Both the position numbers and the translations under genes were made by a program. Shown here piece after piece: positions 1-58,604 of a DNA stretch of 64,000 nucleotides (the stretch's first letter is position 1; each line of letters opens with the position of its first letter). Under the pieces are notes generated by a model. It had not been told where the DNA came from and searched no databases. It saw only the letters and a program-made list of their open reading frames with translations. The stretch covers positions 32,472,423-32,536,422 of the forward strand of contig OZ316891.1 in NCBI GenBank assembly GCA_973895155.1. Reading direction: 5' to 3'. The DNA comes from Marsupella aquatica. Lineage: Eukaryota; Plantae; Marchantiophyta.

Positions 1-4
1 GTAT

Positions 5-1015
5 TTAATTCCTTGCCAATGATCGATGGCGTTGTGGACCCCGTCGGCTCTGCCACAACGCCTGCAGAAAATCCACTGTCCCTGCTACTGCTCCCCACTT
101 AGCCGTCTCATCCAATTGGTCTACATCCTTAACTTCCTCCGGAATTGCAGCTAAAAAGGTGGATTCTATTGTAAAGCAGTCCTCGACCTCTTCGTCTTCT
201 TCTTCCAAGTCACCTTCCATTGGTTCTTGCCATAATCCGCTGGGGGGTACCTCTGGTCCAAAGACACCTTCTTCGGTTAGGTTAGTGAAGCATTCTAACC
301 AACGTACTTCATCGGCTGACTCCAGTCCACTATCGTACCCATCTACTTCCCTTATGCTTTTCCTACGGTCATCCTTAGTGTCCCAGGATACCGTGATAGA
401 GGGGGTCCCGAAAGTGAACTGCTTTTTACCCCAATCTTCTATTACCTCGGCTAGGTACAGCCATGGCCTACCAATCAATAGCCGGAATGACGTAGGATTT
501 ACCGGCTTCATTACTACATAGTTAATGCTAAAGAAGATACCTCCTATTTCTGTCTTGATGCCGGTTAACACTCCCGTCGGAATGACCTGATATCCATTGG
601 CCATGTTCAACACTCTTCCAGTCATCTCCGGTGTTAGACCCCACCCTTTTGTTGTTGAATCAATCATAATACATACCCCTGATCCTCCATCGATGGGTAC
701 CCGTAGTAATAATTCTCCTTGAATCATTAATGGTAATGCTGGGGCTCCTTGATCTTCTTCTATCATTAGTACGTCGGATCTGGTTGCTACCTTGGGTAAT
801 CTCGGCTTGCCGAGAATAGCCTTCCTTAATTGCTTCTGGAAGTACGGGCTATTTTTCAATAGTTGACCTACTGTTGCCGAGACTCTAGATTCTAGTACAT
901 CTTTAGCCAGGTCATAGGGAACAATCGGCTTCTCTTCTGGTGGTGTTTCCGTCTTGGATTCGGCCAGTTTTGCCACGCTAGTCTCCACAGCTGTTGGGTC
1001 TTCCGAAGCAAACAA
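5..1015 (-). pseudogene. Ty3/Gypsy pol N-terminus: retroviral-type aspartic protease (continues off the window's left edge; probable frameshift near position 65)
   Basis: Motifs VPIDGGSGVCIM and LLIGRPWL. In frame with the upstream gag across a single TAA at 1067-1069. Confidence 0.85.
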
Positions 1016-1066
1016 TGCTTTTGCTCGTTTTACATCCTTGGCAATGGCTTCGGTATTCTCCAGGGT

Positions 1067-2998
1067 TTATAATTCTCTTAGTTGTTCCTTAACACTAGCC
1101 GTAACAGAGGGGTAGAACAACTTAGGATGATCTCGATTGAAGTCGCTATCTTGTGAAGGATTGGTTTCACTGGTGGGCTCATGGCTTACCTGTATTGCCG
1201 GAGCCCTCCCTTCTCCTTCTGTTGATGTTGACGAAGAGTCGATTCTTTCCTCCGTAACCTTCCCTTTATTTTTGGCCAGCCCATCCCACCTTTCCTTCCT
1301 TCTGGTAGATCGAGTAGAGACCCGGTAGCAATCATGATCTAAATCCTCCTCTGAGAAGGTTGATAGGGCTTCGGCCTCATCATCAGATGGTACAAACTCT
1401 GCCTCCGCATCCTCTTGCCATCCTAGTTCGATGTGGTTGATTTGAACTCCTCCGGGGGTAGTACCTGGCGGTAAGATCTTGATCGGCAAAAGCTTATGAT
1501 TTGCGGCCAGGCCTGCCAACCAAGTAGGACATTGCCCTAGCATATGACCTTCCTGTCGGCATCCCATACATAGCTGAGCTGGTTGTCCATCACCCTGTTT
1601 GCGTGCATTCGGGCATTCTCTAGCAAAATGGCCAGGTTGACCACAATTATAGCACGCCGCAAATCTTTGCACATTCGGCCTAGGAGGTACTGACGGGTTC
1701 TGAATAATCCGAGGATACATCTCTCCTGGATTGTTCCTTAACCCTGACCACAGAGATGCAGGTCTGTTGGATAGGTCTCGTGCTCCAGTCTCACTGATGC
1801 CGAAAACACTATCAGCGGCATCTCCCAAAAAGTACTCTACTTCTCCCTGACATGGTCTGATCTCGGCCACATGCCGAACATGATTAGTATTAAGCTTAGG
1901 ACAAGCATCTTTATGGTGTCCGGTTTTATAACATAAGGCACACCATACAGAGCTATCCTCCTGTACTACCTTCTTCTTTGGTTTTACCTCTGCAATGATA
2001 GCCTTAAGTTGCTCGGTAAGGGCTACGATGTTATCTGGTGGCTTAGCCTCCATCTTGACTTTCGTCTTCCCTCTCCTTCCGCCCTTCCTTTTCCTAGTTT
2101 TTTCTTCTTCAGAACTAGAAGATGACTCACTCTTGCTACTCCCACTATCCGAGCTTGACTTATCACTTCTAGACTTCTTGGAATGTTTCTTCTTCTTATC
2201 TTTTTTCTTATGGGGTGATCCCTCCTCTGATGAGGAACTCTCAGACTTAAGCTGTTTCTTCCGGCTTGTGATATCTGCATTAATGTATAATTGAATATCC
2301 TTAATTGCTTCGGCTAAAGTCTCCGGGTTCTCCTTCCTAATTGCAAAACTCATCTTCTGTGGCAAAGCATTCACCAACCATTGAAGTTGCATACCTTCAG
2401 ATGCATTGGTCTTTGTACGTCTTACCAGTTTCTGAAAGCATTGCAAGAACTTCCTGAAGGATTTGTTCTCCTTGAACCGAAGTTGTCCCAACTTCAGCAC
2501 TGCTAGTTCTGAAGTTCCAATGGGTCGAAACTCCTTAACAAAGAGTGTTTTGAAGATATCCCAGATGGCTTGATCTTCCACATCTAATGCTCTGTACCAA
2601 GGCCTAGCCTCACCCTTGAACAGGCCGGGAAGAATCTGCATCTTGATGGCCGATTCTCCATTTGCTGCAGCGGTTCCCTCGAAATCATCCAACCATTCGT
2701 CCGGATCCTCATCTCCTCTCCCATGAAATGCCTTGTAATGTATGCGCGACCGCTGGCTCAATCTGGTCCCTGGCCTCTCGTCTGGCCGTGCCTCTGGTTC
2801 CCCCATGTCGGTTGGAGACTCACTTCTCCTTACCGACTCTTCTTCTGGTATGTCTTCTTCGACGCCACTTCCAGTTTCGGAGCTACCAGCTCTTTCTGCC
2901 CCTCTCAGTTGCTGTGTATCATGCCACCCGGCGAGCTGCTGCAGTCGAGCTCTCTCCCGTTGAATCACTCTTTCTTCCCTCGGTGTAAGGTCAGTCAT
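1067..2998 (-). CDS. Ty3/Gypsy Gag (retrotransposon gag capsid + three CCHC zinc knuckles)
   Basis: FHGRGDEDPDEWL..., A..WY..L...W..FK..F gag pattern. Knuckles CALCYKTGHHKDAC, CYNCGQPGHFAREC and CMGCRQEGHMLGQC. Confidence 0.9.
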   Translation of the reverse strand: MTDLTPREERVIQRERARLQQLAGWHDTQQLRGAERAGSSETGSGVEEDIPEEESVRRSESPTDMGEPEARPDERPGTRLSQRSRIHYKAFHGRGDEDPDEWLDDFEGTAAANGESAIKMQILPGLFKGEARPWYRALDVEDQAIWDIFKTLFVKEFRPIGTSELAVLKLGQLRFKENKSFRKFLQCFQKLVRRTKTNASEGMQLQWLVNALPQKMSFAIRKENPETLAEAIKDIQLYINADITSRKKQLKSESSSSEEGSPHKKKDKKKKHSKKSRSDKSSSDSGSSKSESSSSSEEEKTRKRKGGRRGKTKVKMEAKPPDNIVALTEQLKAIIAEVKPKKKVVQEDSSVWCALCYKTGHHKDACPKLNTNHVRHVAEIRPCQGEVEYFLGDAADSVFGISETGARDLSNRPASLWSGLRNNPGEMYPRIIQNPSVPPRPNVQRFAACYNCGQPGHFARECPNARKQGDGQPAQLCMGCRQEGHMLGQCPTWLAGLAANHKLLPIKILPPGTTPGGVQINHIELGWQEDAEAEFVPSDDEAEALSTFSEEDLDHDCYRVSTRSTRRKERWDGLAKNKGKVTEERIDSSSTSTEGEGRAPAIQVSHEPTSETNPSQDSDFNRDHPKLFYPSVTASVKEQLREL

Positions 2999-3044
2999 TA
3001 CCTACGCTTCCGTTCTAACTTCATATCTCACGGCTTAAGAAATG

Positions 3045-3063
3045 CCCCCTCCATCTAGCGCCA
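3045..3063 (-). promoter_or_regulatory. Putative primer-binding site (PBS)
   Basis: Minus-strand TGGCGCTAGATGGAGGGGG begins 4 nt after the LTR's terminal CA and just upstream of gag. TGG start is typical of a PBS; the tRNA was not identified. Confidence 0.7.
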
Positions 3064-3067
3064 AAAA

Positions 3068-6000
3068 TGTGGTGCGTCCCATGGCTCCCTAAACCCAAGA
3101 AACCCCCCAGCTCAAGCCGATTCCCGCAGGTTTCGTGCTTGGCGAGGCCGTTTCCGCGGCTTAGCGGCATGGGACGCTGCTAACCTTCTACTACTACTAT
3201 TAACATTTTACACACATATACTGGACAGATCCTTCATCGGGTCATGAGATACGTAGCCGGCCTAATATAGGCCTTCCCCTGTCTTCCCCTGTCTTCCCCT
3301 CCGTCTTGTTAGGTATGTTTGGATTCCGCCGCCGGAATGATCCCCAATAGGCTTGGTTAAGCCACTAAGACCTCTCTCAGCTCGACACATCCAACTCTCA
3401 CTCCCCTGCTTACTTTCCTTCCTTCTGTTGATGTGGGCACTCTTCACACAAGTTAATGCGACACACAAATAGCAAAATGACTCATTCTGACTGAGTCATA
3501 CCATGCACTTGCCATACAAACAGTACATCTCATACACAAGTTCTGCGAACTAAGCCGTGAGGCCAACTCTATTCAGCTCTTAGGCATGAGGAAACATGAA
3601 TATACACAAGGGTCACTGTATGACTAACCGAGAGCTTCTCGTACTACTTGATCCCAGCCCGGCTGGTGCAAACTAAAAACTTGCTAAAGAAGAGGCCCTG
3701 AGCTCCCCGCTGCCCAGGTACTTATCCTGGTAGTGGATCCGCCATTCTTTGCATCGTAAGCCTAATCTACTTAACAGTAATCTACTTGCCCGAATCTACC
3801 TATGTACAGCAAGGCAGGAGCACAAGTGTTGCTCCTACCAGTGGGACCGCAATCCCACTAAGCTAAGTGTCAGGGCCGCTCCTGGTTCTGATCCTAATCC
3901 TAAACGTGGAGATCCGTGCCCGCCCTGCCCACTCACGCCTCCTCCCTCCACGTCCGCCCTCCCTAAAAGGAACGGCGCCCTTGCATCGTCACGACACCGG
4001 TGGTGGATCCTCAATGGACGCCCCCAACACTTCCTCCTCAGCCACTGCCGTTGGCCCGCCTACTGACAGATTACCTGCCTTTGACCGAGTCAACTCTCCA
4101 TCGGCCTGACTGGGTCCACCTTCGGCTTCAGCCTCGACAACTCCCACGGCTTCGGCTTCAGCCACCCCCACGGCTTCGGCCTCAGCCACCCCCACGGCTT
4201 CGGCCTCCCCTTCCCCTAGGGTAGTTGGATCCTTAGCCGTGACCCTGTCTGGGGTCGGTGCTGGGTCTACCTCCTTGATCACCACGGCCTGTGAAGTCGT
4301 ATTACTCCTTGACCCTGAAGGTTTCCGCTTCTTCTTCGTTGGTGGCTCGGTAGCTGGTCCCTTCCCCTTCCCATTTACTTCCGGCACTGGTGCAGGTGGC
4401 GCGGCTTGTCCTTCGGCAATTACCACCCCTGGTAACTGGTTCGCCCCAACGGGAGATGGACCTGCTGCAGCTAAGCATTTAAATACTGCGGCTTGTTTCT
4501 TCAGCCGCTCTGTTTGGTTGTCGGCCCGCCGCTGTAGGTTCTCCATCTTCCTCGTGATTTCCTCCAACTCCTCTTGGGTTTCATCCAGGTCCTTACGTGC
4601 CTCCTCCAGCTTGTTTTTAGCCTCCTCCTGCTCCCTGTGGGCTTTCTCCAATTCCTTCTTCAAGGTAGCCCTCTCCTCCCCGGTTGATCTTAGCTCCTTG
4701 TCGAGCTCTGCAATGATGACAGACTCCATCTGGTTCATCTTGGCATAAGTCTGATCGAGCATATCGTCCTTCTCCGTTAGGTTGGCTTTGAAGGTGGCCG
4801 TTAGGGACGCAAGCTCCTGCTGCAGCGCAATAATCCCTTGATAGGATTTCCCTAACTCGGCCTCCTTCTGCTCAAGGGCTCCGCGGCTTTTCTGGAGCTC
4901 CCCTTTCAACGCCCGTTCCTTTCTTTGGGTCTCCGCCATGGCCCGATTGTTAGCTGTTATGTGGGCCTCCTCTGCATTCCTCAGCTCTTGCTTCCACTTC
5001 TCCCTCTCTTTGATCGCATCGGCCAACTCTCCTTGGGTCCGCGTCAGTAGATTCTCGATCATCCGGTTTTCAGATTGTGCGGTATCCAACTGGCCCTGCA
5101 TGATATTTAGCTCATGCCGCTTAATCCGCAGCTCATCTTGGGCTTTCTTGGCCGCCCTCAGGTCCTTGATTTCGGCTTCCCTTTCCCTAAGCCGACGGAT
5201 GACCTCGTCCTTCTTGCTTCTTTCCAAGGCCACCGCTTCTTCCAATTGGCGCTTCTCCAACTGCTCCCTATGGAAAAAGGGTCCTACCTCCAATTCCTCC
5301 CCAAAGATGCCGAGCGCAAGTTCCCCACACATCTCACCATACTCCCTGGCTCTATTCTTAGCGTAGGTGGAGTAAGTAGAAGTGATCGGCATCGCCCATC
5401 GCGGCCTCTGCTCCCAAGCCGTCTTGCGGGTCTCTTCAATCGTGGCTAGAGGTTTGCTTCCTTTTTCGGCTAGCCGCCTCATGTCCTCCGGCCAATCTCC
5501 TCCTGGTAAATGCTTTTCCCTAGCCAGGGCTGCTTCCTCTTCCTGCCTGATTCGCTCCTGAAATTCCAGCGCCGTCTGTTTTATGCCGTCAAAGCTCGGG
5601 GGAGCAACATCTGGTGGAGGAGACTCAGGGCTACTCTGCTGGTTGGGGTCTTCTCGTACTACCCTTGGAAGTGTGGGGATAAACCGGCCACAGGTCCTTA
5701 CTCCTGGAACGTGATGGTCCGACCCATAGCCGGAGTTATCATGGCCGCAGTCCTCCACTGCCTCCTCTACTTCTTCTACTTCCGGCTTCTCCCTCTCTTC
5801 TTCGTTGGTAGGAGCTTCCGGCAATTTTGCCTCAGATTCAGAGCTTGAGACTCCGGTAGAGGGGTCTTCCCTTCTAAGTCTGCTTAAGTTGACCTCTGGG
5901 GCAGTGTCCTGCATTGTTGCCGCTGCCGTTGTCATTGCCGATGCCGATCTCTTTTCTTTCTCCAGCAGCTTCAGCAGACTCTGCATGCCTGGTTGCTACA

Positions 6001-7402
6001 TCGGCAAGTCTTCCTTCCTTGGCTTAAACACCTGCTCAATTGTAGGGCTAACAGGTGGTTGAGGCTTTTCTGCTACCGGCCTCGGTGCTAGAGCTTCCTC
6101 GGGTGTCCTTACCTTCAGGGGAAGTACTGGGGCAAAGGTCTGACCTCTGGCATACCGGCACAACAACGGCATGTGATAGCCAAGCCGCGACACGCTCCCC
6201 ATGCCGATTACCTGTTGCTCCTCCTTTAATATCTTCTTCAATTGGTTGAGGAGGTAGCCGTTGTAGTCCCGGCTTGGGTCTGGCCTTTCTGCCAGATAGA
6301 CTTGTGCCTTGCCGATCTCCGCTCTCGGCAAGTTACAATGCATGGTTACCCGCAAGAAGTCGATCATCTCTCCTATGTGCGGGTTGGTGCATGTGTTTCG
6401 GAAGAAGCCATTCTTCGTTGATGGTCCGGGAAACGACCGGAACTCCTTGTCAGGCAAGGTTTTCCTGGTATCAACCTTGGTCTTATTGCCTATCGATAAG
6501 CCAAACACTTCGGCAATTACCTTGGGAGTAAGATAGAAATCCTTCCCATATATTCTCGTGCAATTGGTCTCGGGTTCCCATGACCCCATGAATTCTAATA
6601 GGTCTGAATCCGGCACCTCCGGCTTCAGCCATGGTAATCTTACAAAGGCTTCCAAGCCGGATCCGGCCATGAAGCCTTGGTACTTCTTGGTCTGCATGGC
6701 CGTAAAGCATGCATCCTCCTCCTGTGCAAAATGTAGTTGCACCTCCATTGGTAGAGTTGCCGCCCAGCCCTTCCAGGTGTCATCCCTGGTTGGAATGGCG
6801 TTGATGGGGTCGCTTTCCTCCTCCTCGGCTTCGCTCTGCCTCCTGCTCTGCTGTTCGGCTGGTTTCTTTGGTGCCGCCGACCTCGTTCTTTTTGCCGGGG
6901 TGGCTTCATCGTTGACGACTCCCTTGCTCTTCATCTCAGCTACAGTGGAGGTTTCTCCTAGCACTATTGCTTGGGTCCACCTTTCTGTGCTACCCTTTAA
7001 TTCCCAGTGTATGTCGTTGCAATTCTTGATGGCCTCTCGGATGCCGATGATGCTGTCTTTGCAAAACAGAAGATCGTCAAGCTGATTGGAAGTAGGAGTC
7101 CACAAGAACTCGGCCTTGATGAGTTCGCCTCCTAAGAAAGCCGTTTTCTGCAGCTCCCACAATCTAGCGAGCTCCTGTCGTTCTCGAGCTGCTCTTTCTG
7201 ATTCTTCATCCTCGTAAGTCTTGATGTACTCAGTTGCCCGTTCGAACAAGCATCCCCAGAAATGTGCCGCTTGATTGACGTTGCTCATACCCTCCTTAGG
7301 TCGATCATTGGTATAGGGTTTTGTCCCTATACTAAGGTGTTTCCAGGGTGCATCCTGCTTTACCCCCTTAACTGGCCGAGTGATTCCTGGCTAGGCATCA
7401 CA
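3068..7402 (-). mobile_element. 5' LTR (4,335 bp) of Gypsy family A; contains a long ORF
   Basis: TGTGGTGC...GCATCACA terminal inverted repeat. Adjacent PBS and gag. Colinear end to end with the TSD-flanked copy at 26217-30793. Confidence 0.92.
3989..7288 (-). pseudogene. LTR-encoded ~1,100-aa protein (helical transposon-accessory domain + Pro/acidic linker + long coiled coil); one premature stop
   Basis: ORFs 5996..7288 and 3989..5986 are in frame. The TAG at 5996-5998 is CAG in copy 2. Confidence 0.85.
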
Positions 7403-7560
7403 GGTAATAAGACCAAGGTTGATACCAGGAAGACCTTACTTGACAAGGAGTTCCGGTCGTTCCCAAGACCATCAACAAAGAATGGCTTCTTTCGGAACAC
7501 CTTCACCAACTCGCACATTGGAGAGATGATCAATTTCTTGCGGGTGACCATGAACTGTAC
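7403..7560 (+). mobile_element. Diverged inverted fragment of the family A LTR ORF abutting the LTR
   Basis: Translates GNKTKVDTRKTLLDKEFRSFPRPSTKNGFFRNTFTNSHIGEMINFLRVTM, nearly identical to the ~6340-6495 segment but on the opposite strand. Confidence 0.85.
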
Positions 7561-8204
7561 TTGGCGCTATGATGTTTCATGGTTGTTTTTCATTACGGTA
7601 TTCAGTTTTGGGTAGCGCCTGGCGCTATGATGTTTTCACGTATGAGTTGATCGCTATGTTTGGGACCCTGGATGATTGAAAGTGAACATTGCATTGGATT
7701 TAGAGAGTTTTTACCCATTGACTAGCCGGGTTATTAATGGAATATTCTCTTTGCACATGAAATTTTGGGATATATTGTTGACGTTTTGGTTGAAATATTT
7801 TCCTGTTTCCTTTTTGCTGTTTCCTATTTGGATTTTTCTGTTTCCTAGCACGGTGGTGATACCCAAAAAATAAGGACGGAGTTCCGATTTGGTTGAGGAT
7901 ATGTTTGAGTGGTTGTCTGCACTCTGTTAATTCTTCTTGTAATTATTGTCGTGATGCCCAAAACAAATATCATTGATTGGCATATTTGTGTTGTCGAATT
8001 TGGAACGAAGATCCTTGGGTTAACTTATCGCGTTGAATCTTCTTGATTAGTGTTTAGGTGAACGTTCTTGGGTCAAAAATTTTGTGAATATATTTTTCTT
8101 TTGATCAAAGAAATAAAATCAGTTTTTCCATCACTATTTTGTAGGTTGCTGAGAAAGACCTCACCATCTCATTTATTACTCCAGGTATCCACTCTTATTT
8201 TGGA

Positions 8205-18500: not shown

Positions 18501-18789
18501 GTCTCCTTTGTGAATTTATGGCCAATCTTAGTTCGATCTCTAAGACTGGTCTCCTTCCTTGCCTTCTCCAGAACCTCCTTAGCATTCAAAAGCAAAGGAA
18601 GTGTCGCTGGTCTCACTTTCTTGTCCACCATTTTGTACTTGGTGTTGAGCTCAAGAAATTGAGATAATTCACCATACAACTCATGACTGATTTCCATAAA
18701 AGTTTTACCCTCTGAAAGACCTTCAATTACTTCTTCCAAAGAGACTACCACTCCTTCTTCATCTAGAAGGCCTTCAATCTCCTCACATT
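15596..18789 (-). pseudogene. Gypsy family B pol: RT, RNase H, integrase (several in-frame stops)
   Basis: RT LPQGATNS/PFLDD. RNase H IVTIDSS...ETDCLPL...HIAGKDNPVANMLSR. Integrase HHCC (H..GH...CKTC), RADRGE, YNPEGNGKIER, GPF. Confidence 0.92.
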
Positions 18790-19721
18790 CACTACAACAT
18801 ATTTGACACTTTTGCAAAGGTATTTTTGTCAACGCTCTTGTATTTCCGATGGGCGGCGCTTTGCATATTTTGCGAATCAACCCGTATCGCAAATATAATA
18901 GCTAAAGCGCATTATATCGCTAATTGCAAAGTACGTGGTTTTGCAAATTTTACCAAAACGCGTCGAATGGAAAGGCGCCTTTCAAAGATGGAAAAATCGC
19001 TCGCCGACTCCGAAACTAACTCATGTAAATATTTGCAAAGAAGATTGGATTGAAAATGTTTTGCGATAGTAGTTGTTTGACAAGTTTAAGAATGTCGGAG
19101 GATGGAAGATTTGCAAAACGGTGAAAATATGAAATTTGTGATTGATTTTGCATCACAAGTTTGCGAAGAGTGTAGTATAAAAATATTGAGAAACGAGAAG
19201 ATTCATAGAAATTGCGAGTCCGGTGAGAGTTTGTGAGCTTCGCAAATTATTCACAAACTAAAAATTAAGATTATTGTGAGGTGAGACAATGAAGAGGGTG
19301 GATGGTCCAATATATGGATGGGGCAGGAGGGAAGAGGAAGGGAGGATAGAGGGAGGTACAATGAAGGATGGAAAAGGGAGGGAGTACAATGGAAGAGGAA
19401 GGAGGGAGGAGAAAGAGGAAGGGAGGAGGAGGGACAGACGTACCACGGAGGAGGGAAACACGAGAGTGAGAATGAAAATTATGGAATAAGTAGGAAATAA
19501 AGTTATATTGAGCAACAGAGGTTAGATAGAAAGTTGCATGTAAAATTCACAAGTGATCACAATAAAACAATACAATACATATGTCATGAGTATGACTCAT
19601 TCAAAAGTGAATGGCAAATATAAATATAGACAATCCTTTTTTTATATCACCAAACATGAACAAATCAAATATAACATGAACAAATGTCTAGGCTGGACCC
19701 AAGTGCATATAAATATGTCCC

Positions 19722-22700: not shown

Positions 22701-24541
22701 GAGAACACTCTTTGCCTCCTTCCAAGTTGCTGGCAACACATTCTCAGTGGGCAACATAAGGTCATGGCAAAGTGCAAACATATCAGATAACAAGACATTG
22801 CTTGCCTTGTGTTTGGCCTGTAGGTTCATCAACCCCAAGATGGCTGAAAGACGACTCAAACGAGCACCCTCATAGATAGGTGTTTGGGCATGTTCCTCTG
22901 CTTCTTCCCATTGGCGTTGTCCCTCAGGGGTATGTCTTGGGCGTGGATCATTGGGGGGCACCTGCCCTTCATTGGGAAGGTCATCACCAAGGTTGTCGGC
23001 ACCAAACCAATCAACCATAAAGTCATCCATGGCTCTATCCTGGTCATCAGTTACTTGTTCATCCGTCCAAGGTACCTCTTCATCAGGGTTACTGCTTCCA
23101 CTAGCACTTGATGAGGAGTGTGACTCTAATCCATGTCCTTCTTCTGGCATACCCATTTCTCGATATGTTGCTCTCAATCTCCGTGGTAACATATTTGGAG
23201 AGGGTCGCACATTCTAAAAACAAAGCAAACAATTGAAAGTTATATTGCAAAGAGAACACACACAAAAATGGGCTAGGGGTGTGCAAAAATGAAATAATAT
23301 TGGTTGTGGTGCAAATACAAAATGTGGCCAAAGGCATATGTAGTGTCCTTTGATATACAACATACCACCTATGACCCTTAACTTAACCCTAATCCCACTC
23401 ATAGTGAGTAAATAACTCATCCCCTGAGTTAATGGTCCTTGTTGCTACAACTAGGCAATGGTCATGATGATATGTCTGGCCATAAGGTGCTGGCGGAGGA
23501 CCCTCAATGAAAACCCACTCACAATTTTGCCTACGTTTAGGGCGAGTCCCCACGGTACTGTTTATGAAACCAACAATATTCCCAGTCCGTATGGGGTCCC
23601 CATCTATGACACGCTGCTCACTATACCTTCTAGTGTTTCCATCAAAAGTATCCATGTCCAATGCATAAGTCTTCCACTCAGGGTGTTGTGCAAGGATCAT
23701 GTTCCAATATCTTCTGTTGTAGATGGGTCCACCATAAGGAAACAAAGTAGGCCCCTCTCGGCCGCGTCCACCTCTACCACTCTCGGCGTCCACAATGATG
23801 TCCTCACAGGCAAAAACTCCATAGCCATGTCTATCCCCAAGTGTGGAAGGTTTGATAACCCAACGTCTACCCCAAACCTCTACCTCCGCACCGTAGGAAA
23901 GCTGTTGTGGCAAACCAAAAGTCTCAGGATCCCAGTCCTTGATGACAGGGACACATCTGCCAGTGAACTCACAATCACCCCACCGACCCGTAACCACTGC
24001 CTTGTACAAATCAGTATCCCCTCGGGCCTGCCTCTTGGAACGCTTTCTCCCTCTTGGGACAATAGCCTCAACCCCAACTTCCCTAGGACTGGTGGGCCTT
24101 GCCGCTAGACCCAAGGCTTTTGAGAATGCATTGCCTATAGCATCTAGAACACCTTGTGATGGGACATAGGGTGCTTGTGCCGCAGGTCTAGGCCTATTGG
24201 ATACCTATTCCACCGAAACCAAAACAAACAAAAGTAGGTGTGAAATTGCAAACCTTCAACCATTGAGTAATGGGAATAGGGTAGGAAAACTAAGGCATAA
24301 CACTTACCATATGAGATGAAGAAGCCCCTGCCGTATGACGTCCACAACGCCCATATCTCTCAATATGTTGGGCACATATGTAAGATTTTTGGGAAACCTG
24401 ACCCACACATCTGGAACATTCACAAAGTTGACGGGGTGGACTGCGAGGAGGAGGTGCGGTCGTGTGATGTTGAGGTGGAGGTGGTGTATCTTCATCAGAG
24501 GAGGACGAGTCTGTGGTGGAGATTTCAAAAGATGAAGACAT
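19722..24541 (-). pseudogene. CACTA transposase (TnpD-like): transposase-associated Cys/His exon 24541-24308, then Transposase_21 (from 23213), DUF4218-like and DUF4216-like exons; a few stops
   Basis: HACVNDCMLF..CTTCDEPRY, RLGLASDG, SVWPV..YNLPPW, DYPG, LDPMHIEGNV, KTHDYH, HLLVHL..GPVH.RWMY..ER, FKCKWF, EPF..P. Confidence 0.92.
23389..24541 (-). CDS. SET-domain protein (~349 aa): exon 24541-24308 + exon 24204-23389
   Basis: IKPSTLGDRHGYGVFACEDI, GNIVGFINS, QNCEWV and VATRTINSGDELFTHY are SET signature segments. The phase-0 GTAAGT donor and AATAG acceptor keep the frame, with no stops. Confidence 0.8.
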
Positions 24542-26216
24542 ATCCCTTGTAACAAGATATAATTAAAATGGGCATGTTATGACCAAAACATACCACAAAA
24601 TGATATAAATCAAAGTTCCCAAATAATGATGACAAGAAACCCAAACCAAAATGACCATAGCAATAAAAAAGGTACCTTTATGAGACCCGGGCTCAGCAGT
24701 GCCAATAGGTCTTGTGGCTCTAAGATAATTAATGAACCCAATCTGAAAGTATGAGGGAAAAGCTGCAACCATTCCATGTATATGTAAGCACAATAATCTG
24801 GACCAGACAAGAACAAAAAACCCTATATACATGTCCCCTTTATACATAGTGGCAACCAAAAGTGTTAAGTACATGAAAGGAACACTTTAGCCGATCATGC
24901 AATGTTTACCTTTCAGATGCTCGGGCTCTCACAATGCATATGCATTAGTATCAAATCATCAAAAAGTGCCGCACCCTGCAAGCTATCATATATTCCTCTC
25001 CTTTGTTAGCAAAACCCACGCCAATCCCCTTTTGATTCATAAACCCAATGAACCTCTCTTAAACCCAAAAGGCTGCAATATAAATCTCATGAAACCTTGC
25101 TTTGTCTTATCCAAACCTTCAACCCCAAACCGCATCCTACCTATTAAACCTAAATCTGACTTACACACAAACCCAAACCTTTCTTCAACCCTAGAGACCT
25201 TTCTATTTAAAAACCCCAAACCCTAAAACCCTAAACCCAAACCTTACTTATTTCTTGTAAACCAAATCCCACACCTTTATTATTTCTTCTAAACTAATGT
25301 AAACCCAAACCTTAGCCTAAACCAACACCATACATAACCCATTAACCTGAAATCTGCCTAACCCTGCAAACCCGCCTTCAACTATTATCTAACACCCAAA
25401 ACATGGCCAAAAAGCATTCCAAATATGAGTATAGAGGGGTCCACTTCACCTTTGAAAAAAACCCTTTCAAATGAAGCCAACATTCCCCCAGGACGAGTTG
25501 CCAATGTCTTGCGAAGCCGCTTCCTTCGCAAATACCATCACAAATTAGAATTGAGGTTTGCGAAGCTGCTGCTTTCGCACGACCTTCAGAAAAACAGAGC
25601 CCGAGAGCATTTCTACGAGAGAGCGAAGGTGTTGCAAAGCCTTTCACGTCGCAATGGTTTCGCAAAATTGAGAAACTATATGCGAAACAAGAAGAATCGC
25701 AAATTGCAAAACGGGTTGCTTTGCAAGTCTTTCCCGCTTGTACTTTTGCACTCGGCCGCGGCGTACTCAGCGGCATTTGACAAATTTCAAGCGTAGGGAG
25801 GGAGAAGGGAGCTCGCGCGCGCTCGGGGGGTGGCTTGGCTATGGATTCCAGTGGAGCAAATGGAGGTGATGGGGCAGGGGTGAGTGACAGTGGCAATGGG
25901 AATGAAGGCAATGGGGAGCAGGAGAGGAATCGATGGACCGATTTGATGGCTGAGCACCTCAATGCAGCACAGTTGAGCCACTTAGATTTGACTACACCAG
26001 CAAGGATTGCTTCTTTGAGTGCAATCCTTGGGCAAGCCTTGCAAACGGGAGTAGATGTAGGGAACATTGCAAGGGAGGAGGAGCAAAGGAGTGCAGCTCA
26101 ACAGAAGGCAAGAGAGAAGAAGCGTAAGAAGGAGGAGAGGGCCAAGGTAGGAGTAGTCTCACCTGCTGCCCTAGAAAAGAAGAGGAGGAGAGAGGAACGA
26201 GATGAGATAAGAGCAC

Positions 26217-29200
26217 TGTGGTGCGTCCCATGGCTCCCTAAACCCAAGAAACCCCCCCAGCACAAGCCGATTCCCACAGGTTTTGCGCTTGGCGGGGCCG
26301 TTTCCGTGGCTTAGCGGCATGGGACGCTGCTAACTTCTTCCTCTACATCTATTAACATTTTACACACATATACTGGACAGATCCTTCATCGGGTCATGAG
26401 ATATGAAGCCGGCCTACTCTAGGCCTTCCCTTATCTTTCTCTCCTTCTGGTTAGGTATATTTGGATTTCGCCGCCGGAATGATCCCCAATAGGCTTGGTT
26501 AAGCCGCTAAGACCTCTCTCAGCTCGACACATCCAACTCTCACTCCCTTGCTTACCTTCCTTTCCCTATTAGTTGATGTGGGCACTCTTCACACAAGTTA
26601 ATGCGACACACAAATAGTAAAATGACTCCTTCTGACTGAGTCATACCATGCACTTGCCATACAAACAGTACATCTCATACACAAGCTCTGCGAACTAAGC
26701 CGTGAGGCCAACTCTATTCAGCTCTTAGGCATGAGGAAACATGAATATACACAAGGTCACGGTATGACTAACCGAGAGCTTCTCTTACTACTTGATCCCA
26801 GCCCGGCTGGTGCAAACTAAAAACTTGCTAAAGAAGAGGCCCTGAGCTCCCCGCAGCCTAGGTATTTATCCTGGTAGCGGATCCGCCTAATTCTTTGCAG
26901 CGTAAGCCTAATCTACCTAACAGTAATCTACCTGTCCGGAGCTACCTATGTACAGCAAGGCAAGGGCACAAGTGTTGCTCCTACCAGTGGAACCGCAATC
27001 CCACTAAGCTAAGTGTCAGGGCCACTCCTGGTCCTGATCCTAATCTTAAACCTGGAGATCAGCGCCCGGCCCACTCACGCCTCCTACCTCCACGTCCGCC
27101 CTTCCTAAAAGGAACGGCGCCCTTGCACCGTCACGATACCGGTGGTGGATCCTCAATGGACGCCCCCAATGCTTCCTCCTCAGCCACTGCCGTTGGCCCG
27201 CCTACTGACAGATTACCTGCCCTTGACCGAGTCAACTCTCCCTCGGCCTGACTGGGTCCATCTTCGGCTTCGGCCTCGACACCGGCCTCGGCAATACCCA
27301 CGGCTTCGGCTTCAGCCACTCCCACGGCTTCGGCTTCACCTTCTTCTAGGGTAGTTGGATCCTTAGCCGTGACCCTGTCTGGGGTCGGTGCTGGGTCTAC
27401 CTCCTTGGTCACCACGGCCTGTGGAGTCGTATTACTCCTTGACCCAGAAGGTTTCCGCTTCTTCTTCATTGCCGGCTCGGCAGCTGGTCCCTTCCCCTTC
27501 CCACTTACTTTCAGCACTGGTGCAGGTGGCGCGGTTTGTTCTTCGGCCAGTACCACTCCTGGTAACTGGTTCGCCCCAACGGGAGATGGACTTGCTGCAG
27601 CTAAGCATTTAAATACTGCGGCTTGTTTCTTTAGCCGCTCTGTTTGGTTGTCGGCCCGCCGCTGTAGGTTCTCCATCTTCCTCGTGATTTCCTCCAACTC
27701 CTCTTGGGTCTCATCCAGGTCCTTACGTGCCCCCTCCAGCTCTCTGTGGGCTTCCTCCTGCTCTTTGTGGGCTTCTTCCAATTCCTTCTTCAAGGTAGCC
27801 CTCTCCTCCTGGGTTGCTCTTAGCTCTTTGTCGAGCTCTGTCACGATTTCAGACTCCATTTTATCCATCTTGGCATAAGTCTGACCGAGCATATCGTCCT
27901 TCTCCTTTAGGTCGGCTTTGAAGCTGGCCGTTAGGGATGCAAGCTCTTGCTGCAGCGCAATAATCCCTTGATAGGATTTCCCTAACTCGGCCTCCTTCTG
28001 CTGAAGGGCTCCGCGGCTTTTCTCGAGCTCCCCCTTCAACGCCCATTCCTTTCTTTGGGTCTCCGCCATGACCCGGTTGTTGACTGCTATATGGGCCTCC
28101 TCTGCGTTTCTCAGCTCCTTCTTCCATTTCTCCCTGTCCTTGATTGCATCGGCCAATTCTCCCTGGGCCTGAGTCAGTTTATCCTTGATAATCTGACTAT
28201 CCGCCTGCGCTATGTCCAACTGCCCCTGCATGATATTTAGCTCATGCCGTTTAATCCGTAGCTCATCTTGGGCTTTCTTGGCTGTCCTTAGATCTTCAAT
28301 CTCGGCTTCCATCCTCCTAAGCCGCCGGATGACCTCGTCCTTCTTGCTTCTCTCTAAAGCCACCGCTTCTTCTAATTGGTGCTTCTCCAACTGCTCCCTA
28401 TGGAAAAAGGGTCCTACCTCCAACTCCTCCCCAAAGATGCCGAGCGCAAGTTCCCCACACATCTCACCATACTCCATGGCTCTATTCTTAGCGTAGGTGG
28501 AGTAAGTAGAAGTGATCGGCATCACCCAACGCGGCCTCTGCTCCCAAGCCGTCTTGCGGATCTCTTCAATCGTGGCTAGAGGTTTGCTTCCTTTTTTGGC
28601 TAGCCGCCTGATGTCCTCCGGCCAATCTCCTCCTGGTAAATCCTTTTCCCTAGCCAGGGCTGCCTCCTCTCCCTGCCTGATTCGCTCCTGAAATTCCTGC
28701 ACTGTCTGTTTTATGCCGTCAAAGCTCGGGGGAGCAACATCTGGTGGAGGAGACTCAGGGCTACTCTGCTGGTTGGGGTCCCCTCGTACTACCCTTGGAA
28801 GTGTGGGGATAAACCAGCCACAGGTCCTTACTCCTGGAACGTGATGGTCCGACCCATAGCCGGAGTTATCATGGCCGCAGTCCTCCACTGCCTCCTCTAC
28901 TTCTTCTACTTCCGGCTTCTCCCTCTCTTCTTCGTTGGTAGGAGCTTCCAGCAATTCTGCCTCAGATTCAGAGCTTGAGACTCCGGTAGAGGGGTTTTCC
29001 CTTCTAAGTCTGCTTAAGTTGACCTCTGGGGCAGTGTCCTGCATTGTTGCCGTTGTCGTTGTCGTTGTCGTTGCCGATCTCCTTTCTTTCTCCAGTAGTT
29101 TCAGCAGATTCTGCATGCCTGGTTGCTGCATCGGCAAGTTTTCCTTCCTTGGCTTAAACACCTGCTCAATCGTAGGGCTAACAGGTGGTTGAGGCTTTTC

Positions 29201-30793
29201 TGCTACCAGCCTCGGTGCTGGAGCTTCCTCGGGTGCCCTTACCTGCAGGGGAAGTACTGGGGCAAAGGTCTGACCTCTGGCATACCGGCACAACAGCGGC
29301 ATGTGATAGCCAAGCCGCGACACGCTCCCCATGCCGATTACCTGCTGCTCCTCCTTTAGGATCTTCTTCAATTGGTTGAGGAGGTAGCCGTTGTAGTCCC
29401 GGCTTGGGTCTGGCCTTTCTGCCAGATAGACTTGTGCCTTGCCGATCTCCGCTCTCGGCAAGTTATAATGCATGGTTACCCGCAAGAAGTCGATCATCTC
29501 TCCTATGTGCGGGTTGGTGCAGGTGTTTCTGAAGAAGCCATTCTTCGTTGATGGTCCGGGAAACGACCGGAACTCCTTGTCAGGCAAGGTCTTCCTGGTA
29601 TCAACCTTGGTCTTATTGCCTATCGGCAAGCCAAACACTTCGGCAATTACCTTGGGAGTAAGATAGAAATCCTTCCCATATATTCTCGTGCAATTGGTCT
29701 CGGGTTCCCATGACCCCACGAATTCTAATAGGTCTGAATCCGGTACCTCCGGCTTCAGCCATGGTAATCTTACAAAGGCCTCTAAGCCAGATCCGGCCAT
29801 GAAGCCTTGGTACATCTTGGTCTGCATGGCCGTAAAGCATGCATCCTCCTCCCTTGCAAAATGTAGTTGCACCTCCACCGGTAGAGTTGCCGCCCAGCCC
29901 TTCCAGGTGTCATCCCTGGTTGGAATGGCTTTAATGGGATCGACCTCCTCTACTTCGGCTTCTCCTTGCCTCCTGCTCTGCTGTTCGGCTGGCTTCGTTG
30001 GTGCCGCCGACCTCGTTCTTTTGGCCGGGGTGGTTTCATCGTTGACGGCTCCCTTCCTCTTCATCTCGGCTGCCGTGGAGGTTTCTCCTAACACCGTTGC
30101 CCGGTTCCACCTTTCTGTGCTACCCTTCAATTCCCAGTGTATGTCGTTGCAGTTCTTGATGGCCTCTCGAATGCCGATGATTTTGTCTTTGCAAAACAGA
30201 AGATCGTCGAGCTGATTGGAAGTAGGCGTCCACAAGAACTCGGCCTTGATAAGTTCGCCTCCTAAGAAAGCCGTTTTCTGCAGCTCCCACAATCGAGCGA
30301 GCTCCTATCATTCTCGAGCTGCCCTTTCTGATTCTTCGTCCTTGTAAGTCTTGATGTACTCAGTTGCCCGTTCGAACAGGCATCCCCAGAAATGTGCCGC
30401 TTGATTGACGTTGCTCATACGCTCCTTAGGTCGATCGTCGGTATCTACTCTCTCCCCGAGTGCTTGCCTAAATAGCTGACAGTAGTTGGCCTCCCGTAGT
30501 CGTCTGCCTAGTTCGTGCTCGCAAATGAGCCACAATCTTCTGCGAGCGCTCCTTACCCCTCTCCTCTTCCGGCCCTTCCTCCCGTTGATCCTTCCCAGCC
30601 GCCGATGCTTAGCGCGCCCTAACCCTAATCGAGTTTTCACCCCCAGTGTTTTTACCTCCGGCCTCGGCCCGGGTTCCATAGTTGCCCCTAATTATTTATA
30701 TTTTCTTGTTTTGTCCCTATGCTAAGGTGTTTCCAGGGTGTATTCTTGCTTTACCTACTTAACTGGCCGAGTGATTCCTGGCTAGGCATCACA
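26217..30793 (-). mobile_element. Solo LTR of Gypsy family A (4,577 bp)
   Basis: TGTGGTGC...GCATCACA ends. Perfect 5-bp TSD AGCAC at 26212-26216 and 30794-30798. No gag/pol or PBS adjacent. Confidence 0.96.
27131..30679 (-). pseudogene. LTR-encoded protein, copy 2 (1,053-aa open frame plus an in-frame N-terminal part behind TGA-TAG)
   Basis: ORFs 30308..30679 and 27131..30292 are in frame. The stops correspond to CGA CAG in copy 1. Confidence 0.87.
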
Positions 30794-33074
30794 AGCACAG
30801 CGGGAGGAGCAGCGAAAGAAGGAGGAAGAGAGGAAGAAGCTGCCTATGATTGCCTTGATCGAAGGCATTCCTACTGAACTGGCCTACACCGGGGCAAAGA
30901 GCACTATCAGGCTTATGGTGCGCTCCAATTTTGCACGAGGAAGTGGGGGAAACTCAGCAAGGCAGACCAGAAGAAAGGAATGAGTCAAATCAAAGATTCA
31001 TTTCGAAACGGAGCAAAGATTGATGAACAGTGGCTTGCAGATAGAATTTCCAATTCAATGTCTCAAGCACGGTACCATGATAGGAAGAAGGTAAGGGTCT
31101 ACCTGGCAAACTTGGAGGAGTACAGAAACATGAGGAGGCCACTGCAATTCACTGAGGACATGTGGAATGCCTTTTACAAAGTGGAGGTGCAGATGAGAGC
31201 TGCCAGGAACCTTCTCTTCTGGAAGGAGATGGAAACCAAGGCACAGAAGGCCGGGAAGTCCGACCGAGAGCTCAAGGCAATGGCTGAGAAAGTGTCTCAC
31301 ATGCAGCACATTGTGGATGAAGTGGGTGCACCACCCCAAAAATTCATCCTTGCAGCTGAGCGAGTCAGCAAACGGCCCAAGACCACGCACAAGATGGGCC
31401 AAGGTGGACTTCCCGGCCTCAAAGCACACTTTGTGAGTGGGCCCTCTCCTCTCCTCCCCTGCTTCTGTTTCCTTGCTTTCAATTGCTATCCAAACCTGCA
31501 ATGCCCCCCTGCATACCTCTTGTTTCTTTCTTACGGCTTGCCTTGTACTTTAGGTCACCCTGACACATTGCGTGCCTTAGAGATTTCTCGGAATTTTTTA
31601 AAAACAGAGTTTGCAAAGCTTTTGCGATGCGGGTTGCTTTGCAAATGTTTCGCAAAGTCTATCATGGCATTTTTTAAAGTTGTAAATGCGAAGCTATTGC
31701 GAAATAATTCGCTTCGCAAACTACTTCGCAAACAGCCAATTTATTTGAATTTGCGAAGTGGGGAGTTTTGCAAGTGTGTATTATGTTTAAAAAAAACCGC
31801 TAAGGGTTATTGAGCCCAGTTTTGTGTTAGGGGGCACCCTATTAGCACCTCCATGCATTTTTCTTGGGTTTATAGCATATTAACCTCGATTGATTTTGGT
31901 TTTGGAATGTTTGGTTGTGGTAGTATAAGAGGTACCGCAGGAAGATAACAGCAAAAGAGATGGAGATAGGATCTGCGCATGGAGCCAAACATCTCTTTGA
32001 CTTGGTTGACGCAGAGTTGGCGACTATAAGTGCATGTATCCCCTTCAGTTTTTCCCACCCAATCCACTTATCTTTTCATTCCGTAAACCTAAACCAATTT
32101 GGCGTTGTGCTGTGCAAACAGGATGATGAGGATGCCAGTGATACCAGCAGCACCGATGAGAACAATGAGGGGACCACGACAAAGGGGCCCAAGGTAGGAG
32201 GGAGTAGTGGATCTGGACCAGTAGGAGGAGTTTCCCAGCAGGAGGGGGAGGAAGAGGATGAGGACGAGGACAAGGAGGAACCAGATGTGGAGGAGCAGCC
32301 AGCACCACCTCCTGTGCCACGTCCGGATCGTCGCAAGAGGGACAAGGGGAAGAGGCCGGCGACAAGGAGTAGGAGGACCCCATTCTAGAGCTTGGTGGTG
32401 TAGTGCCTATGGGATGCCCATTTACTTAGTGTAGTATATAGTTTTGATATGGGTAGTCTTATAGGGACCTAGCTTGTCATATGACACCCATCTAGGGTTT
32501 AGGGTTTAGGAAACCCTAATTTTTGTGTACCTATCAATTTTCTATAAAGCAATTTTGATTCAGACCTCATTCTCCGTGTTGGACAACAAGACCCCAACCA
32601 TAATTCAAAACTCTAAATCTAAACCCTAGCCTCAAGACATCTTGCGAAACCTATGCGAACAACCCAATTCGCATATTTACCATATTGAAGGTATCGCAAA
32701 CATTATGCAAACCACATACGTTCACAAAAATGTGAAGCCATGTTCATGGCATAACTACCATTAACTTAATATCGCAAGCCGATTACCAAACTTCTGGGAT
32801 TGCAAATATTTAACTGCTTGATTATTATCGCAAGCCTCTCGCGACGCCCACGGAGTTGCTTAAATGTGAGTCCTTTGCGATTCTATTAGTGTCGCAAGTT
32901 GCGAAGGCGTTGCGAAGGTCTTGCAAAAGACCGGATGCGAACCTTTGGGCTTCGCAGTTTGCGATTCTATTGCAATGCGCGATACTTCGCAAAGGCGAGT
33001 TTTGTTTTTTGATTTCCTTTGTTGTTTGCGATGCTTTCAAGTTCGCAAAAGGTGTAGGTAGTGTTGTAGTGATT

Positions 33075-58506: not shown

Positions 58507-58604
58507 ACTTATAGAGTCATTAAAGAACCCAAGAGATATGAAGATTAAAATACTCAATAGTTATTCTAGACACCGGTCATAATTGTAGAGTCATTGATAT
58601 AGTT

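What the first reader, a model, noticed from the sequence alone, without database searches (positions are those of the whole stretch)
26217..30793. Protein-coding LTR: a 4.6-kb solo LTR carries a complete ~1,100-1,180-codon gene
Seen: TG..CA termini, terminal inverted repeat and AGCAC TSD define a solo LTR, and its twin (3068-7402) sits directly against the PBS and gag. About 75% of the LTR is one ORF, in the same sense as gag. The two copies carry different C>T stops, so the consensus is fully open. Established: extra ORFs of Athila/Tat/Ogre elements normally lie in the internal region, and LTRs are mostly non-coding. Inference: each full element carries the gene twice, and solo-LTR recombination, the host's usual way of removing elements, leaves a complete gene with its promoter.
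Basis: partly seen in the sequence, partly recalled or inferred. Interest (0 to 1): 0.82.

Follow-up and report, generated by a model that had tools for sequence, protein, structure and literature searches.

The report
Retrotransposon end carrying anti-silencing-like gene
A 4.6-kb terminal repeat of a plant jumping gene, a part that normally codes for nothing, is three-quarters filled by one long protein gene that shows purifying selection; its product is predicted to fold like a known DNA-binding anti-silencing protein, so the element likely carries a defence against host silencing in its own ends.

Summary
Observation confirmed. Window 26217-30793 is a 4,577-bp solo LTR of a high-copy plant Ty3/gypsy-type element. 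It is TG..CA-bounded with AGCAC duplicated, and the empty site exists in 4 of 4 sequencing runs. Its 92.6%-identical twin abuts the PBS and gag. One sense ORF (30679-27131, 1,182 codons) fills 77.5% of it. dN/dS between the copies is 0.31 (neutral simulation 0.70, minimum 0.42 of 500), and frameshifting indels avoid the ORF. New here: the ORF's 230-residue domain has no Pfam hit, but its model and a 22%-identical homolog's model each match only VANC21-DNA among 48,161 PDB chains (Z 8.4, 6.9; moderate). VANC21 shares its fold with plant mobile domains (PMD). The protein is therefore likely a PMD/VANC-like plus coiled-coil accessory factor, as in Tat/Ogre extra ORFs, but it sits inside the LTR. 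Not shown: a full-length element with both LTRs, a PPT, any transcript, or the claim that solo LTRs keep the gene's promoter. Both window copies carry stops. No VANC-type motif array was found. The scan noted smaller genes inside LTRs on other genomes before, none with this fold. New variant of a known kind; interest 0.62.

The parts
26217..30793 (-). Solo LTR, 4,577 bp, TG..CA, 7-of-8 terminal inverted repeat
26212..26216 (.). Target-site duplication AGCAC, left copy
30794..30798 (.). Target-site duplication AGCAC, right copy
   Evidence: empty site in 4 of 4 runs
27131..30679 (-). LTR-borne ORF, 1,182 codons from the first ATG (1,095 from the ATG at 30418); two adjacent premature stops at 30305-30310
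30497..30634 (-). Very basic N-terminal patch (net +17 in residues 1-60); possible nuclear localisation signal (inferred)
29249..29938 (-). Conserved globular domain (residues 248-477); predicted VANC21/PMD-like fold
27620..28402 (-). Charged helical region (about residues 760-1020), likely coiled coil; only sub-threshold Pfam hits (ATG16, Laminin_II), and my periodicity test gave no clear peak
30695..30700 (-). The only TATAAA on the sense strand of the LTR (LTR position 94), 21 nt before the first ATG; role not shown
26217..27130 (-). Non-coding 3' part of the LTR, 914 bp; T-richer, with 6 of the LTR's 9 TGTA words; likely holds poly(A) signals and possibly the genomic promoter, R and U5 (inferred)
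3068..7402 (-). Twin LTR, the 5' LTR of an element that runs off the window; about 260 bp deleted near its 5' end
3989..7288 (-). ORF of the twin from the second ATG, 1,099 codons, one premature stop at 5996-5998
3055..3063 (-). Primer-binding-site-like TGGCGCTAG, 4 nt after the twin's end (the only copy of this word in the window)
8..2998 (-). gag (Retrotrans_gag, zinc knuckle) to a stop at 1067-1069, then an in-frame stretch with a protease-like motif (motif recalled, no Pfam hit); RT lies outside the window
7403..7566 (+). Inverted 165-bp fragment of the same ORF (87% identical) abutting the twin's 5' end; likely an older family copy that the element inserted into

Best explanation
The unit is the long terminal repeat of an abundant plant Ty3/gypsy-type retrotransposon, and it contains one long protein gene under purifying selection whose product is predicted to be a VANC/PMD-fold DNA-binding domain plus a likely coiled coil, which likely binds the element's own DNA to counter host silencing. 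Shown: LTR identity and boundaries, the ORF, selection on it, a conserved domain family with liverwort members. Predicted: the fold (moderate match to VANC21) and the coiled coil. Inferred: an extra ORF of the Tat/Ogre PMD-coiled-coil kind was engulfed when an LTR boundary moved. Most likely this was a new upstream polypurine tract, which makes the ORF part of U3, as nef and sag are in retroviruses (recalled). Reverse transcription would then copy the gene into both LTRs, and LTR-LTR recombination would leave it behind in solo LTRs such as this one. In this layout the working mRNA would come from the 3' LTR copy through an upstream promoter or a splice, and the genomic RNA would start in the 914-bp tail, so most solo copies would be passengers. 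My odds by step: coding LTR under selection 0.9; PMD/VANC fold group 0.7; sequence-specific chromatin binding that counters silencing 0.45; U3 rather than R/U5 0.55.
For: LTR: twin ends 4 nt before the PBS-like word and 70 nt before gag; empty site in 4 of 4 runs and diverse flanks at 30793; flanking frame restored; no internal short repeats. Both LTRs, indirectly: ORF-to-gag depth 3.24, 3.45, 4.63, 3.62. Selection: 1,095 codon pairs, dS 0.155, dN 0.048, ratio 0.31 (bootstrap 0.23-0.41); 500 neutral simulations with the same substitution spectrum gave mean 0.70 and minimum 0.42; shifted frames 0.97 and 1.24; 112 of 225 substitutions at third positions. Indels: 1 of 10 in the ORF (12 bp, in frame), 9 of 10 in the 914-bp tail (8 not multiples of three), P about 9e-6 if uniform. 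Family: 18 proteins at E up to 0.001 among 1.84 billion representatives; 3 named ones are from the liverwort Calypogeia fissa. Fold: model pLDDT 71.5; VANC21-DNA 9LNK is the only chain of 48,161 with Z of 2 or more (Z 8.4, rmsd 4.3, 207 of 230 aligned); Foldseek rank 1 is 9LNJ (TM 0.48). A homolog 22% identical (pLDDT 83) gives the same single match (Z 6.9, rmsd 4.8, 190 aligned; Foldseek probability 0.84, TM 0.57). Atlas leads Transposase_32 and ATHILA, both 0.87. VANC and MAIN/PMD are reported as structural homologs (PMC13547354; bioRxiv 2024.09.27.615353). Tat extra ORFs are PMD plus coiled coil (PMC4408406). For use of the first ATG: strong context, the 87 codons before the second ATG are open (417 of 20,000 shuffles), and two variant loose ends just after it keep the frame (2 of the 24 rows shown, read by eye).
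Against: No full-length element, 3' LTR or PPT was seen; loose ends at 30793-30794 agree only 0.46-0.52 and give no purine-tract consensus (24 of 92 rows shown). Depth is summed over contigs, is no copy number, and the best run may be the window's own source. The fold match is middling: the tool says Z under 8, or under 13 for helical proteins, may be only a common arrangement; both Foldseek E-values (1.5, 0.41) are not significant; identity is 7-10%; the two models share most alignment rows, so they are not independent. Pfam gives no PMD, Transposase_28, Transposase_32, ATHILA or DUF1985 hit for 18 of 18 alignment members at E 10. VANC targets are tandem motif arrays in non-coding parts (PMC5735166); none was found in the LTR tail (top word counts reached by 27-200 of 200 shuffles). 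One 200-codon stretch has dN/dS 0.91, and divergence varies from 1.6% to 17% along the LTR, which suggests mosaic copies. Three premature stops against 6.3 expected under neutrality is no strong signal by itself. The only TATAAA is at the LTR's 5' end, which favours the rival layout.
Confidence: 0.5

Rival explanations
1. Same gene and protein, other layout: transcription starts near the LTR's 5' end, the ORF lies in R or U5, and a poly(A) site in the 914-bp tail closes it, so every solo LTR is a whole gene. It could have arisen when the PBS moved downstream past an Ogre-type ORF that lay before gag. This rival concerns the layout, not the protein's function.
For: The only TATAAA of the sense strand is at LTR position 94; TGTA words and T-richness cluster at 3840-4450 after the stop. 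The order ORF, about 0.9-kb spacer, gag is that of Ogre (lineage IV) PMD-CC ORFs (PMC4408406). The leader from PBS to gag is only about 65 nt. The tail is less diverged (0.060) than the ORF's silent sites (0.155).
Against: The TATAAA is 21 nt before the first ATG, so a start at the usual 25-35 nt (recalled) would fall after it, yet the frame after that ATG seems to be kept. Gag would then lie 4.5 kb from the cap behind a long ORF and behind the poly(A) signals, and would need splicing or a second promoter.
Confidence: 0.3
2. The LTR gene is real, but its product does another job: tethering the integration complex to chromatin, nuclear import, or a structural role in the particle through coiled-coil oligomers.
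For: No VANC-type motif array in the LTR. A shared fold shows no function. Athila-domain and VANC proteins are predicted to form coiled-coil pentamers (PMC13547354). The function of Tat extra ORFs is stated to be unknown (PMC4408406). Insertion next to another family copy (7403-7566) would fit chromatin targeting (one case only).
Against: The two characterised groups with this fold, VANC and PMD-C, both act at DNA motifs against silencing. No transmembrane stretch (highest 19-residue hydropathy 0.98), so an env-like role is unlikely.
Confidence: 0.3
3. The 4.6-kb unit is not an LTR but a separate non-autonomous or nested element that happens to sit next to a PBS.
For: No 3' LTR or PPT was seen. 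In runs X3 and X4 the tail is 1.6 and 2.6 times deeper than the ORF, so relatives may share the tail without this ORF.
Against: No internal terminal repeats. The twin has no duplication of its own and ends 4 nt before the PBS-like word. The whole unit moved as one piece with a 5-bp duplication. The lowest ORF bin is still 1.55-2.78 times the gag mean.
Confidence: 0.07
4. The ORF is a dead passenger, captured once and decaying.
For: Both copies in the window carry premature stops, and the twin lost its first ATG.
Against: dN/dS 0.31 lies below all 500 neutral simulations; frameshifts avoid the ORF; homologs keep the domain at 20-46% identity.
Confidence: 0.03

Closest known systems
PMD-coiled-coil extra ORFs of Tat/Ogre Ty3/gypsy elements (lineages IV and V of Ustyantsev et al. 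2015, PMC4408406; sections 6 and 11 read)
   Same: Accessory ORF of a Ty3/gypsy-type element; globular domain of the predicted PMD/VANC fold followed by a likely coiled coil; sense orientation and position before gag as in lineage IV (Ogre).
   Different: Here the ORF is inside the LTR, upstream of the PBS, and also stands in solo LTRs. No Pfam PMD hit. The nearest named relatives are from a liverwort, whereas that paper found no extra ORFs in lineages I and II or in moss Tat-like elements.
VANC21 of VANDAL21, a Mutator-like DNA transposon of Arabidopsis (PDB 9LNK/9LNJ; Hosaka et al. 2017, PMC5735166, passages)
   Same: Only structural match in the PDB for two models; transposon-encoded accessory protein; a coiled coil is reported for VANC too (PMC13547354, passages).
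   Different: 7-10% identity; only part of the 362-residue chain is matched; encoded by a retrotransposon LTR; no tandem target-motif array found; function not tested.
MAIN/MAIL1/MAIL2 PMD-C proteins and retrotransposon PMD-A (Ikeda et al. 2017, PMC5418596, passages; Pelissier et al., bioRxiv 2024.09.27.615353, passages)
   Same: Same fold group by way of VANC (reported homology); PMD-A clades are encoded by Gypsy elements.
   Different: No direct sequence match was obtained; those surveys cover angiosperms; PMD-C genes are host genes.
Athila ORF1 (PF03078) and Transposase_32 (PF20167) extra ORFs
   Same: Language-model leads at 0.87; sense accessory ORF of non-chromovirus elements.
   Different: Scores under 0.9 are leads only; no HMM hit; described from the internal region.
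Retroviral genes in the LTR U3: MMTV sag, HIV nef (recalled; also named in scan notes)
   Same: Coding sequence inside an LTR, duplicated by reverse transcription.
   Different: Those are a few hundred codons and unrelated in sequence; this ORF is 1,182 codons; its place in U3 is inferred, not mapped.
Long-LTR plant elements: Retrosat2/RIRE3 with ORF0 (PMC3485330, passages); non-chromovirus LTRs up to about 5 kb (PMC6317226, passages)
   Same: LTRs over 3 kb, an extra ORF before gag-pol, many solo LTRs.
   Different: [quoted passage not shown]

Membership tests
Solo LTR of an LTR retrotransposon | TG..CA ends with short inverted repeat and a 4-6 bp target-site duplication | tested here: met
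   marks alone are at chance level, backed by the empty site in 4 of 4 runs and the restored flanking frame
Solo LTR of an LTR retrotransposon | A copy of the same unit stands directly before a PBS and gag | tested here: met
   twin 3068-7402, TGGCGCTAG after 4 nt, gag ATG at 2998; the matching tRNA was not identified
Solo LTR of an LTR retrotransposon | A copy stands directly after a polypurine tract as 3' LTR of a full-length element | tested here: inconclusive
   no PPT consensus among the 24 of 92 loose-end rows shown; no genome held
TRIM/LARD-type non-autonomous element with its own short LTRs | Direct repeats at the two ends of the unit | tested here: not met
   local score 23 (solo) and 19 (twin) against shuffle means 21.6 and 21.8; no such repeat
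Ty3/gypsy superfamily | Gag of Ty3 type | tested here: met
   Retrotrans_gag E 1e-08, Ty3_capsid E 0.0012 (below cut-off), zf-CCHC; Atlas
Ty3/gypsy superfamily | Domain order PR-RT-RH-INT | not testable with these tools
   pol of this element lies outside the window; no genome held
Tat/Ogre/Athila (OTA) lineage | RT phylogeny and, for Tat, an added archaeal-type RNase H | not testable with these tools
   RT not in the window; the PBS word resembles the Tat/Retand type only from recall
Plant mobile domain PF10536 / Transposase_28 / Transposase_32 / ATHILA | Match to the Pfam profile above its cut-off | tested here: not met
   0 hits for the ORF and its domain at E 10; 0 of 18 alignment members
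VANC/PMD fold group | Structural similarity over most of the domain | tested here: met
   sole chain with Z of 2 or more among 48,161 for two models: Z 8.4 and 6.9, 207 of 230 and 190 of 203 aligned; moderate strength, predicted models
VANC-type anti-silencing system | [quoted passage not shown] | tested here: inconclusive
   none in the LTR tail or gag region; the rest of the internal region is not in the window
VANC-type anti-silencing system | Sequence-specific DNA binding and loss of methylation in trans | not testable with these tools
   needs DAP-seq/ChIP and methylomes
U3-encoded accessory gene (nef/sag layout) | ORF upstream of the genomic transcription start, expressed from the 3' LTR | not testable with these tools
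   no RNA holder listed

The most novel reading that the evidence does not exclude
A lineage of non-seed-plant retrotransposons has moved a VANC-like, sequence-specific anti-silencing gene into its LTR together with its own promoter and terminator. Each solo LTR left by host recombination would then be a self-contained anti-silencing gene acting in trans on the family, so the host's main way of deleting these elements would multiply their counter-defence. It would also place retrotransposon-borne PMD/VANC-fold proteins far earlier than the gymnosperm origin proposed for Tat extra ORFs, hidden in LTRs.
Probability: 0.17. Interest if true: 0.88.

Novelty: new variant of a known kind. Interest (0 to 1): 0.62.

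Why it matters
LTRs are treated as non-coding control regions, and solo-LTR formation as harmless removal. Here three-quarters of an LTR is a selected gene, so it is likely doubled in each element and kept in solo LTRs. The role of plant retrotransposon extra ORFs is a long-standing open question (stated as unknown in PMC7264820 and PMC4408406). The structural link to VANC21 gives a direct test: bind the domain to family DNA and look for loss of silencing marks. If the host is a non-seed plant, as the liverwort homologs suggest, PMD/VANC-fold proteins on retrotransposons are older than published surveys imply, and LTRs are a place where they may have been overlooked (inference).

Tried and rejected
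Whole genome: none held, so no count of full-length elements, no RT tree. RNA: no RNA holder listed; this says nothing on expression. PPT: not resolved from loose ends. Word-index protein searches: 0 hits of 2,214 candidates for the long ORF; with the alignment 2 of 6,681 longer and 1 of 1,522 similar-length candidates. Pfam: nothing above cut-off for the ORF, its domain or 18 homologs. PDB by sequence: no significant hit. Viral structure library: 0 of 62 matches at E 0.001. Metagenome contigs: 38 and 408 pattern matches, none confirmed, so the genomic context of homologs, including the liverwort ones, was not seen. Rfam over 26000-31000: 0. Tandem target motifs: none. Coiled-coil periodicity test: no clear peak; the splice-donor list of that call was printed with a wrong offset and was not used. 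Terminal marks as proof on their own: rejected, chance level. A possible third homolog at 38049-38375: E 2.7, not counted. Lower CpG loss in this family (0.62-0.68 against 0.37-0.39 in three neighbouring repeat regions) as a sign of anti-silencing: rejected, since younger age explains it as well. Literature: ten searches showed no report of a long ORF inside a plant LTR. The phrase searches are narrow (searches returned 0). Steinbauerova et al. 2011 and Tanaka et al. 2026 were seen only as references, Sasaki et al. 2022 is not held, and no supplements were read; the extra-ORF tables of PMC6317226 could list such cases.
Full report
Setting. The window ends in a TTTAGGG array, so the host is a plant. 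No whole genome is held. The window is a nest of transposon remains: CACTA-type tnp2 and DUF4218, a SET domain, a Ulp1 protease, and an older RT-RNase H-integrase. The named relatives of the protein in question are from the liverwort Calypogeia fissa at about 25-32% identity, so a non-seed plant is likely. The species was not determined.

The unit is a solo LTR. 26217-30793 is bounded by TG..CA with 7 of 8 inverted match and AGCAC on both sides. I tested whether that is more than chance, and alone it is not: 2 such pairs in the window against 0-6 (mean 2.4) in 20 shuffles. The boundaries rest on other results. A second copy at 3068-7402 aligns to both ends (92.6% over 4,255 columns and 93.0% over 86). 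Removing the unit and one duplication leaves one frame of the flanking DNA open over the junction (145 and 61 codons, against 2/16 and 3/26 in the other two plus-strand frames). In 4 of 4 sequencing runs (two studies; one may be the window's source) contigs join the right flank to the left-flank sequence, and other contigs stop at 30793 (30794 in one run) and go on into unlike flanks (agreement 0.46-0.52). The twin has no duplication of its own. It ends 4 nt before TGGCGCTAG, the only such word in the window, and 70 nt before a gag ATG. The two ends of the unit share no repeat (score 23 and 19 against shuffle means of 21.6 and 21.8), so it is not a small element with short LTRs of its own. A 3' LTR with its polypurine tract was not seen: the window starts inside gag-pro, and the 24 of 92 loose-end rows shown gave no purine consensus. 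Summed contig depth over the ORF is 3.24, 3.45, 4.63 and 3.62 times that over gag, and over the non-coding tail 3.3-9.6 times. This fits two LTRs per element plus solo copies, but the tool warns that depth is no copy number.

The ORF is real. It runs from 30679 to 27131 on the gag strand, 1,182 codons, 77.5% of the LTR; an in-frame ATG at 30418 gives 1,095. The solo has two adjacent premature stops and the twin one; each copy is open where the other is broken. The twin also lacks about 260 bp that hold the first ATG; loose ends in 3 of 4 runs show that the family has this stretch. Over 1,095 codon pairs dS is 0.155 and dN 0.048, ratio 0.31 (bootstrap 0.23-0.41). 500 neutral simulations with the same substitution spectrum gave a mean of 0.70 and a minimum of 0.42, and the two shifted frames gave 0.97 and 1.24. 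Of 10 indels in the shared ORF and tail, 1 lies in the ORF and keeps the frame; 9 lie in the 914-bp tail (P about 9e-6). Against: one 200-codon stretch has a ratio of 0.91, divergence is uneven (1.6-17% per 250 bp), and only two copies were compared.

The protein. It has a basic N-terminus, a conserved 230-residue domain (residues 248-477), an acidic and proline-rich linker, a long charged helical region that is likely a coiled coil (only sub-threshold Pfam hits; my periodicity test was flat), and a low-complexity tail; there is no transmembrane stretch. A search of 1.84 billion representatives found 18 relatives. Pfam names none of the 18 alignment members at E 10 with a transposon family. 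The AlphaFold model (pLDDT 71.5) matches one chain of 48,161 at Z 2 or more: VANC21 bound to its target DNA (9LNK, Z 8.4, rmsd 4.3, 207 aligned, 7% identity). Foldseek ranks 9LNJ first (E 1.5, TM 0.48; Z 8.1 on a second look). A model of a homolog 22% identical to the query (pLDDT 83) gave the same single match (Z 6.9, rmsd 4.8, 190 aligned; Foldseek probability 0.84, TM 0.57, E 0.41). These scores are middling by the tool's own notes, and the two models share alignment rows, but the match stands alone and covers the whole domain. The Atlas gave Transposase_32 and ATHILA clusters at 0.87, leads only. VANC is reported as a structural homolog of MAIN and of the MAIL1 plant mobile domain (PMC13547354, passages; bioRxiv 2024.09.27.615353, passages). 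Tat elements carry PMD-plus-coiled-coil extra ORFs (PMC4408406, sections 6 and 11). The simplest reading is that this ORF is a distant member of that accessory group, though it fails the Pfam membership test.

How it most likely works. Shown: an LTR with a selected gene. Predicted: a VANC/PMD fold. Inferred: both characterised groups with this fold act at DNA motifs and oppose silencing (PMC5735166, passages), so the product likely binds family DNA and counters silencing (0.45). Against this, no tandem motif array was found in the LTR, and roles in targeting or particle structure stay open (0.3). On layout, the only TATAAA is at LTR position 94 and the TGTA-rich stretch follows the stop, which looks like a whole gene. 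But the first ATG is only 21 nt after the TATAAA and seems to be used: the 87 codons before the second ATG are open (417 of 20,000 shuffles), and two variant loose ends keep the frame (read by eye, weak). I therefore lean to a U3 gene fed from upstream in the 3' LTR, as for nef and sag (recalled), at 0.55, against 0.3 for a self-contained gene in R or U5. No RNA holder was listed, so neither is tested.

Comparison and novelty. Long LTRs up to about 5 kb and extra ORFs are known in non-chromovirus elements (PMC6317226, passages; PMC3485330, passages; PMC11963269, passages). The review of additional ORFs places them in the internal region (PMC7264820, parts 1-2 of 3). Ten searches showed no plant LTR with a long ORF inside. 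The searches are narrow, Steinbauerova et al. 2011 and Tanaka et al. 2026 were seen only as references, and no supplements were read. PMC4408406 found no extra ORFs in moss Tat-like elements and dates the first to gymnosperms; PMC5418596 (passages) surveys PMD in angiosperms. PMC3601003 (passages) notes that U3/R/U5 borders need RNA data. The scan's own notes list five smaller genes inside LTRs on other genomes (unchecked), none under VANC, and no look-alike of this stretch. A second, decayed homolog lies in this window at 54847-55086 (E 7e-14; 28% over 75 residues to P0025), in a unit of similar build whose ends I could not fix.

Verdict. Observation confirmed; interpretation partly supported. 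New variant of a known kind: a known class of accessory gene in an unusual place, with a structural lead to its function. Interest 0.62.

Noticed in passing
window 52592-55747 (-): A second GC-richer unit holds a decayed ORF with the same domain (54847-55086, E 7e-14 to my profile) followed by a proline-rich linker, a charged helical stretch and a non-coding tail. ACCAC flanks 52592 and 55747, but an exact 5-bp match is at chance level there and the inverted repeat is weak. It may be a solo LTR of a second family with the same layout; no nucleotide similarity to the first.
   Followed up: partly
window 7403-7566 (+): A 165-bp inverted fragment of the same ORF abuts the twin's 5' end, followed by a TGGCGCTA word; likely an older family copy used as insertion site.
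   Followed up: partly
window 25781-26216 and 30794-31813: The solo LTR interrupts a multi-copy repeat (empty site in 4 of 4 runs) that lies near CACTA-type tnp2 (22005-23213), DUF4218 (20890-21579) and a SET domain (23392-24204); whether all are one element was not tested.
   Followed up: partly
window 37854-38561 (-): An ORF about 2.7 kb upstream of a gag-like region (33.3-35.9 kb) looks by eye like a further distant member of the domain family, but scored only E 2.7.
   Followed up: partly
window 1-7402 and 26217-30793: CpG observed/expected is 0.62-0.68 in this family against 0.37-0.39 in three neighbouring repeat regions; younger age or less methylation.
   Followed up: no
window 15596-18901 (-): Broken pol (RT, RNase H, integrase zinc domain) of another, older Ty3/gypsy-type element, next to a 99-bp tandem array at 14838-15439.
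   Followed up: no
window about 61830-64000: Plant-type telomere array that joins GC-rich DNA directly; the LTR family copies lie 31-59 kb from the array.
   Followed up: no
window 58597-60509: Tandem array with a period of about 580 bp, 80-87% alike, just inside the telomere.
   Followed up: no
window 44099-44770 (+): ORF with a Transferase (PF02458) hit, E 3e-10; possibly a host gene fragment among the repeats.
   Followed up: no
window 13751-14386 (+): Ulp1-type protease (Peptidase_C48) fragment, typical cargo of plant DNA transposons (recalled).
   Followed up: no
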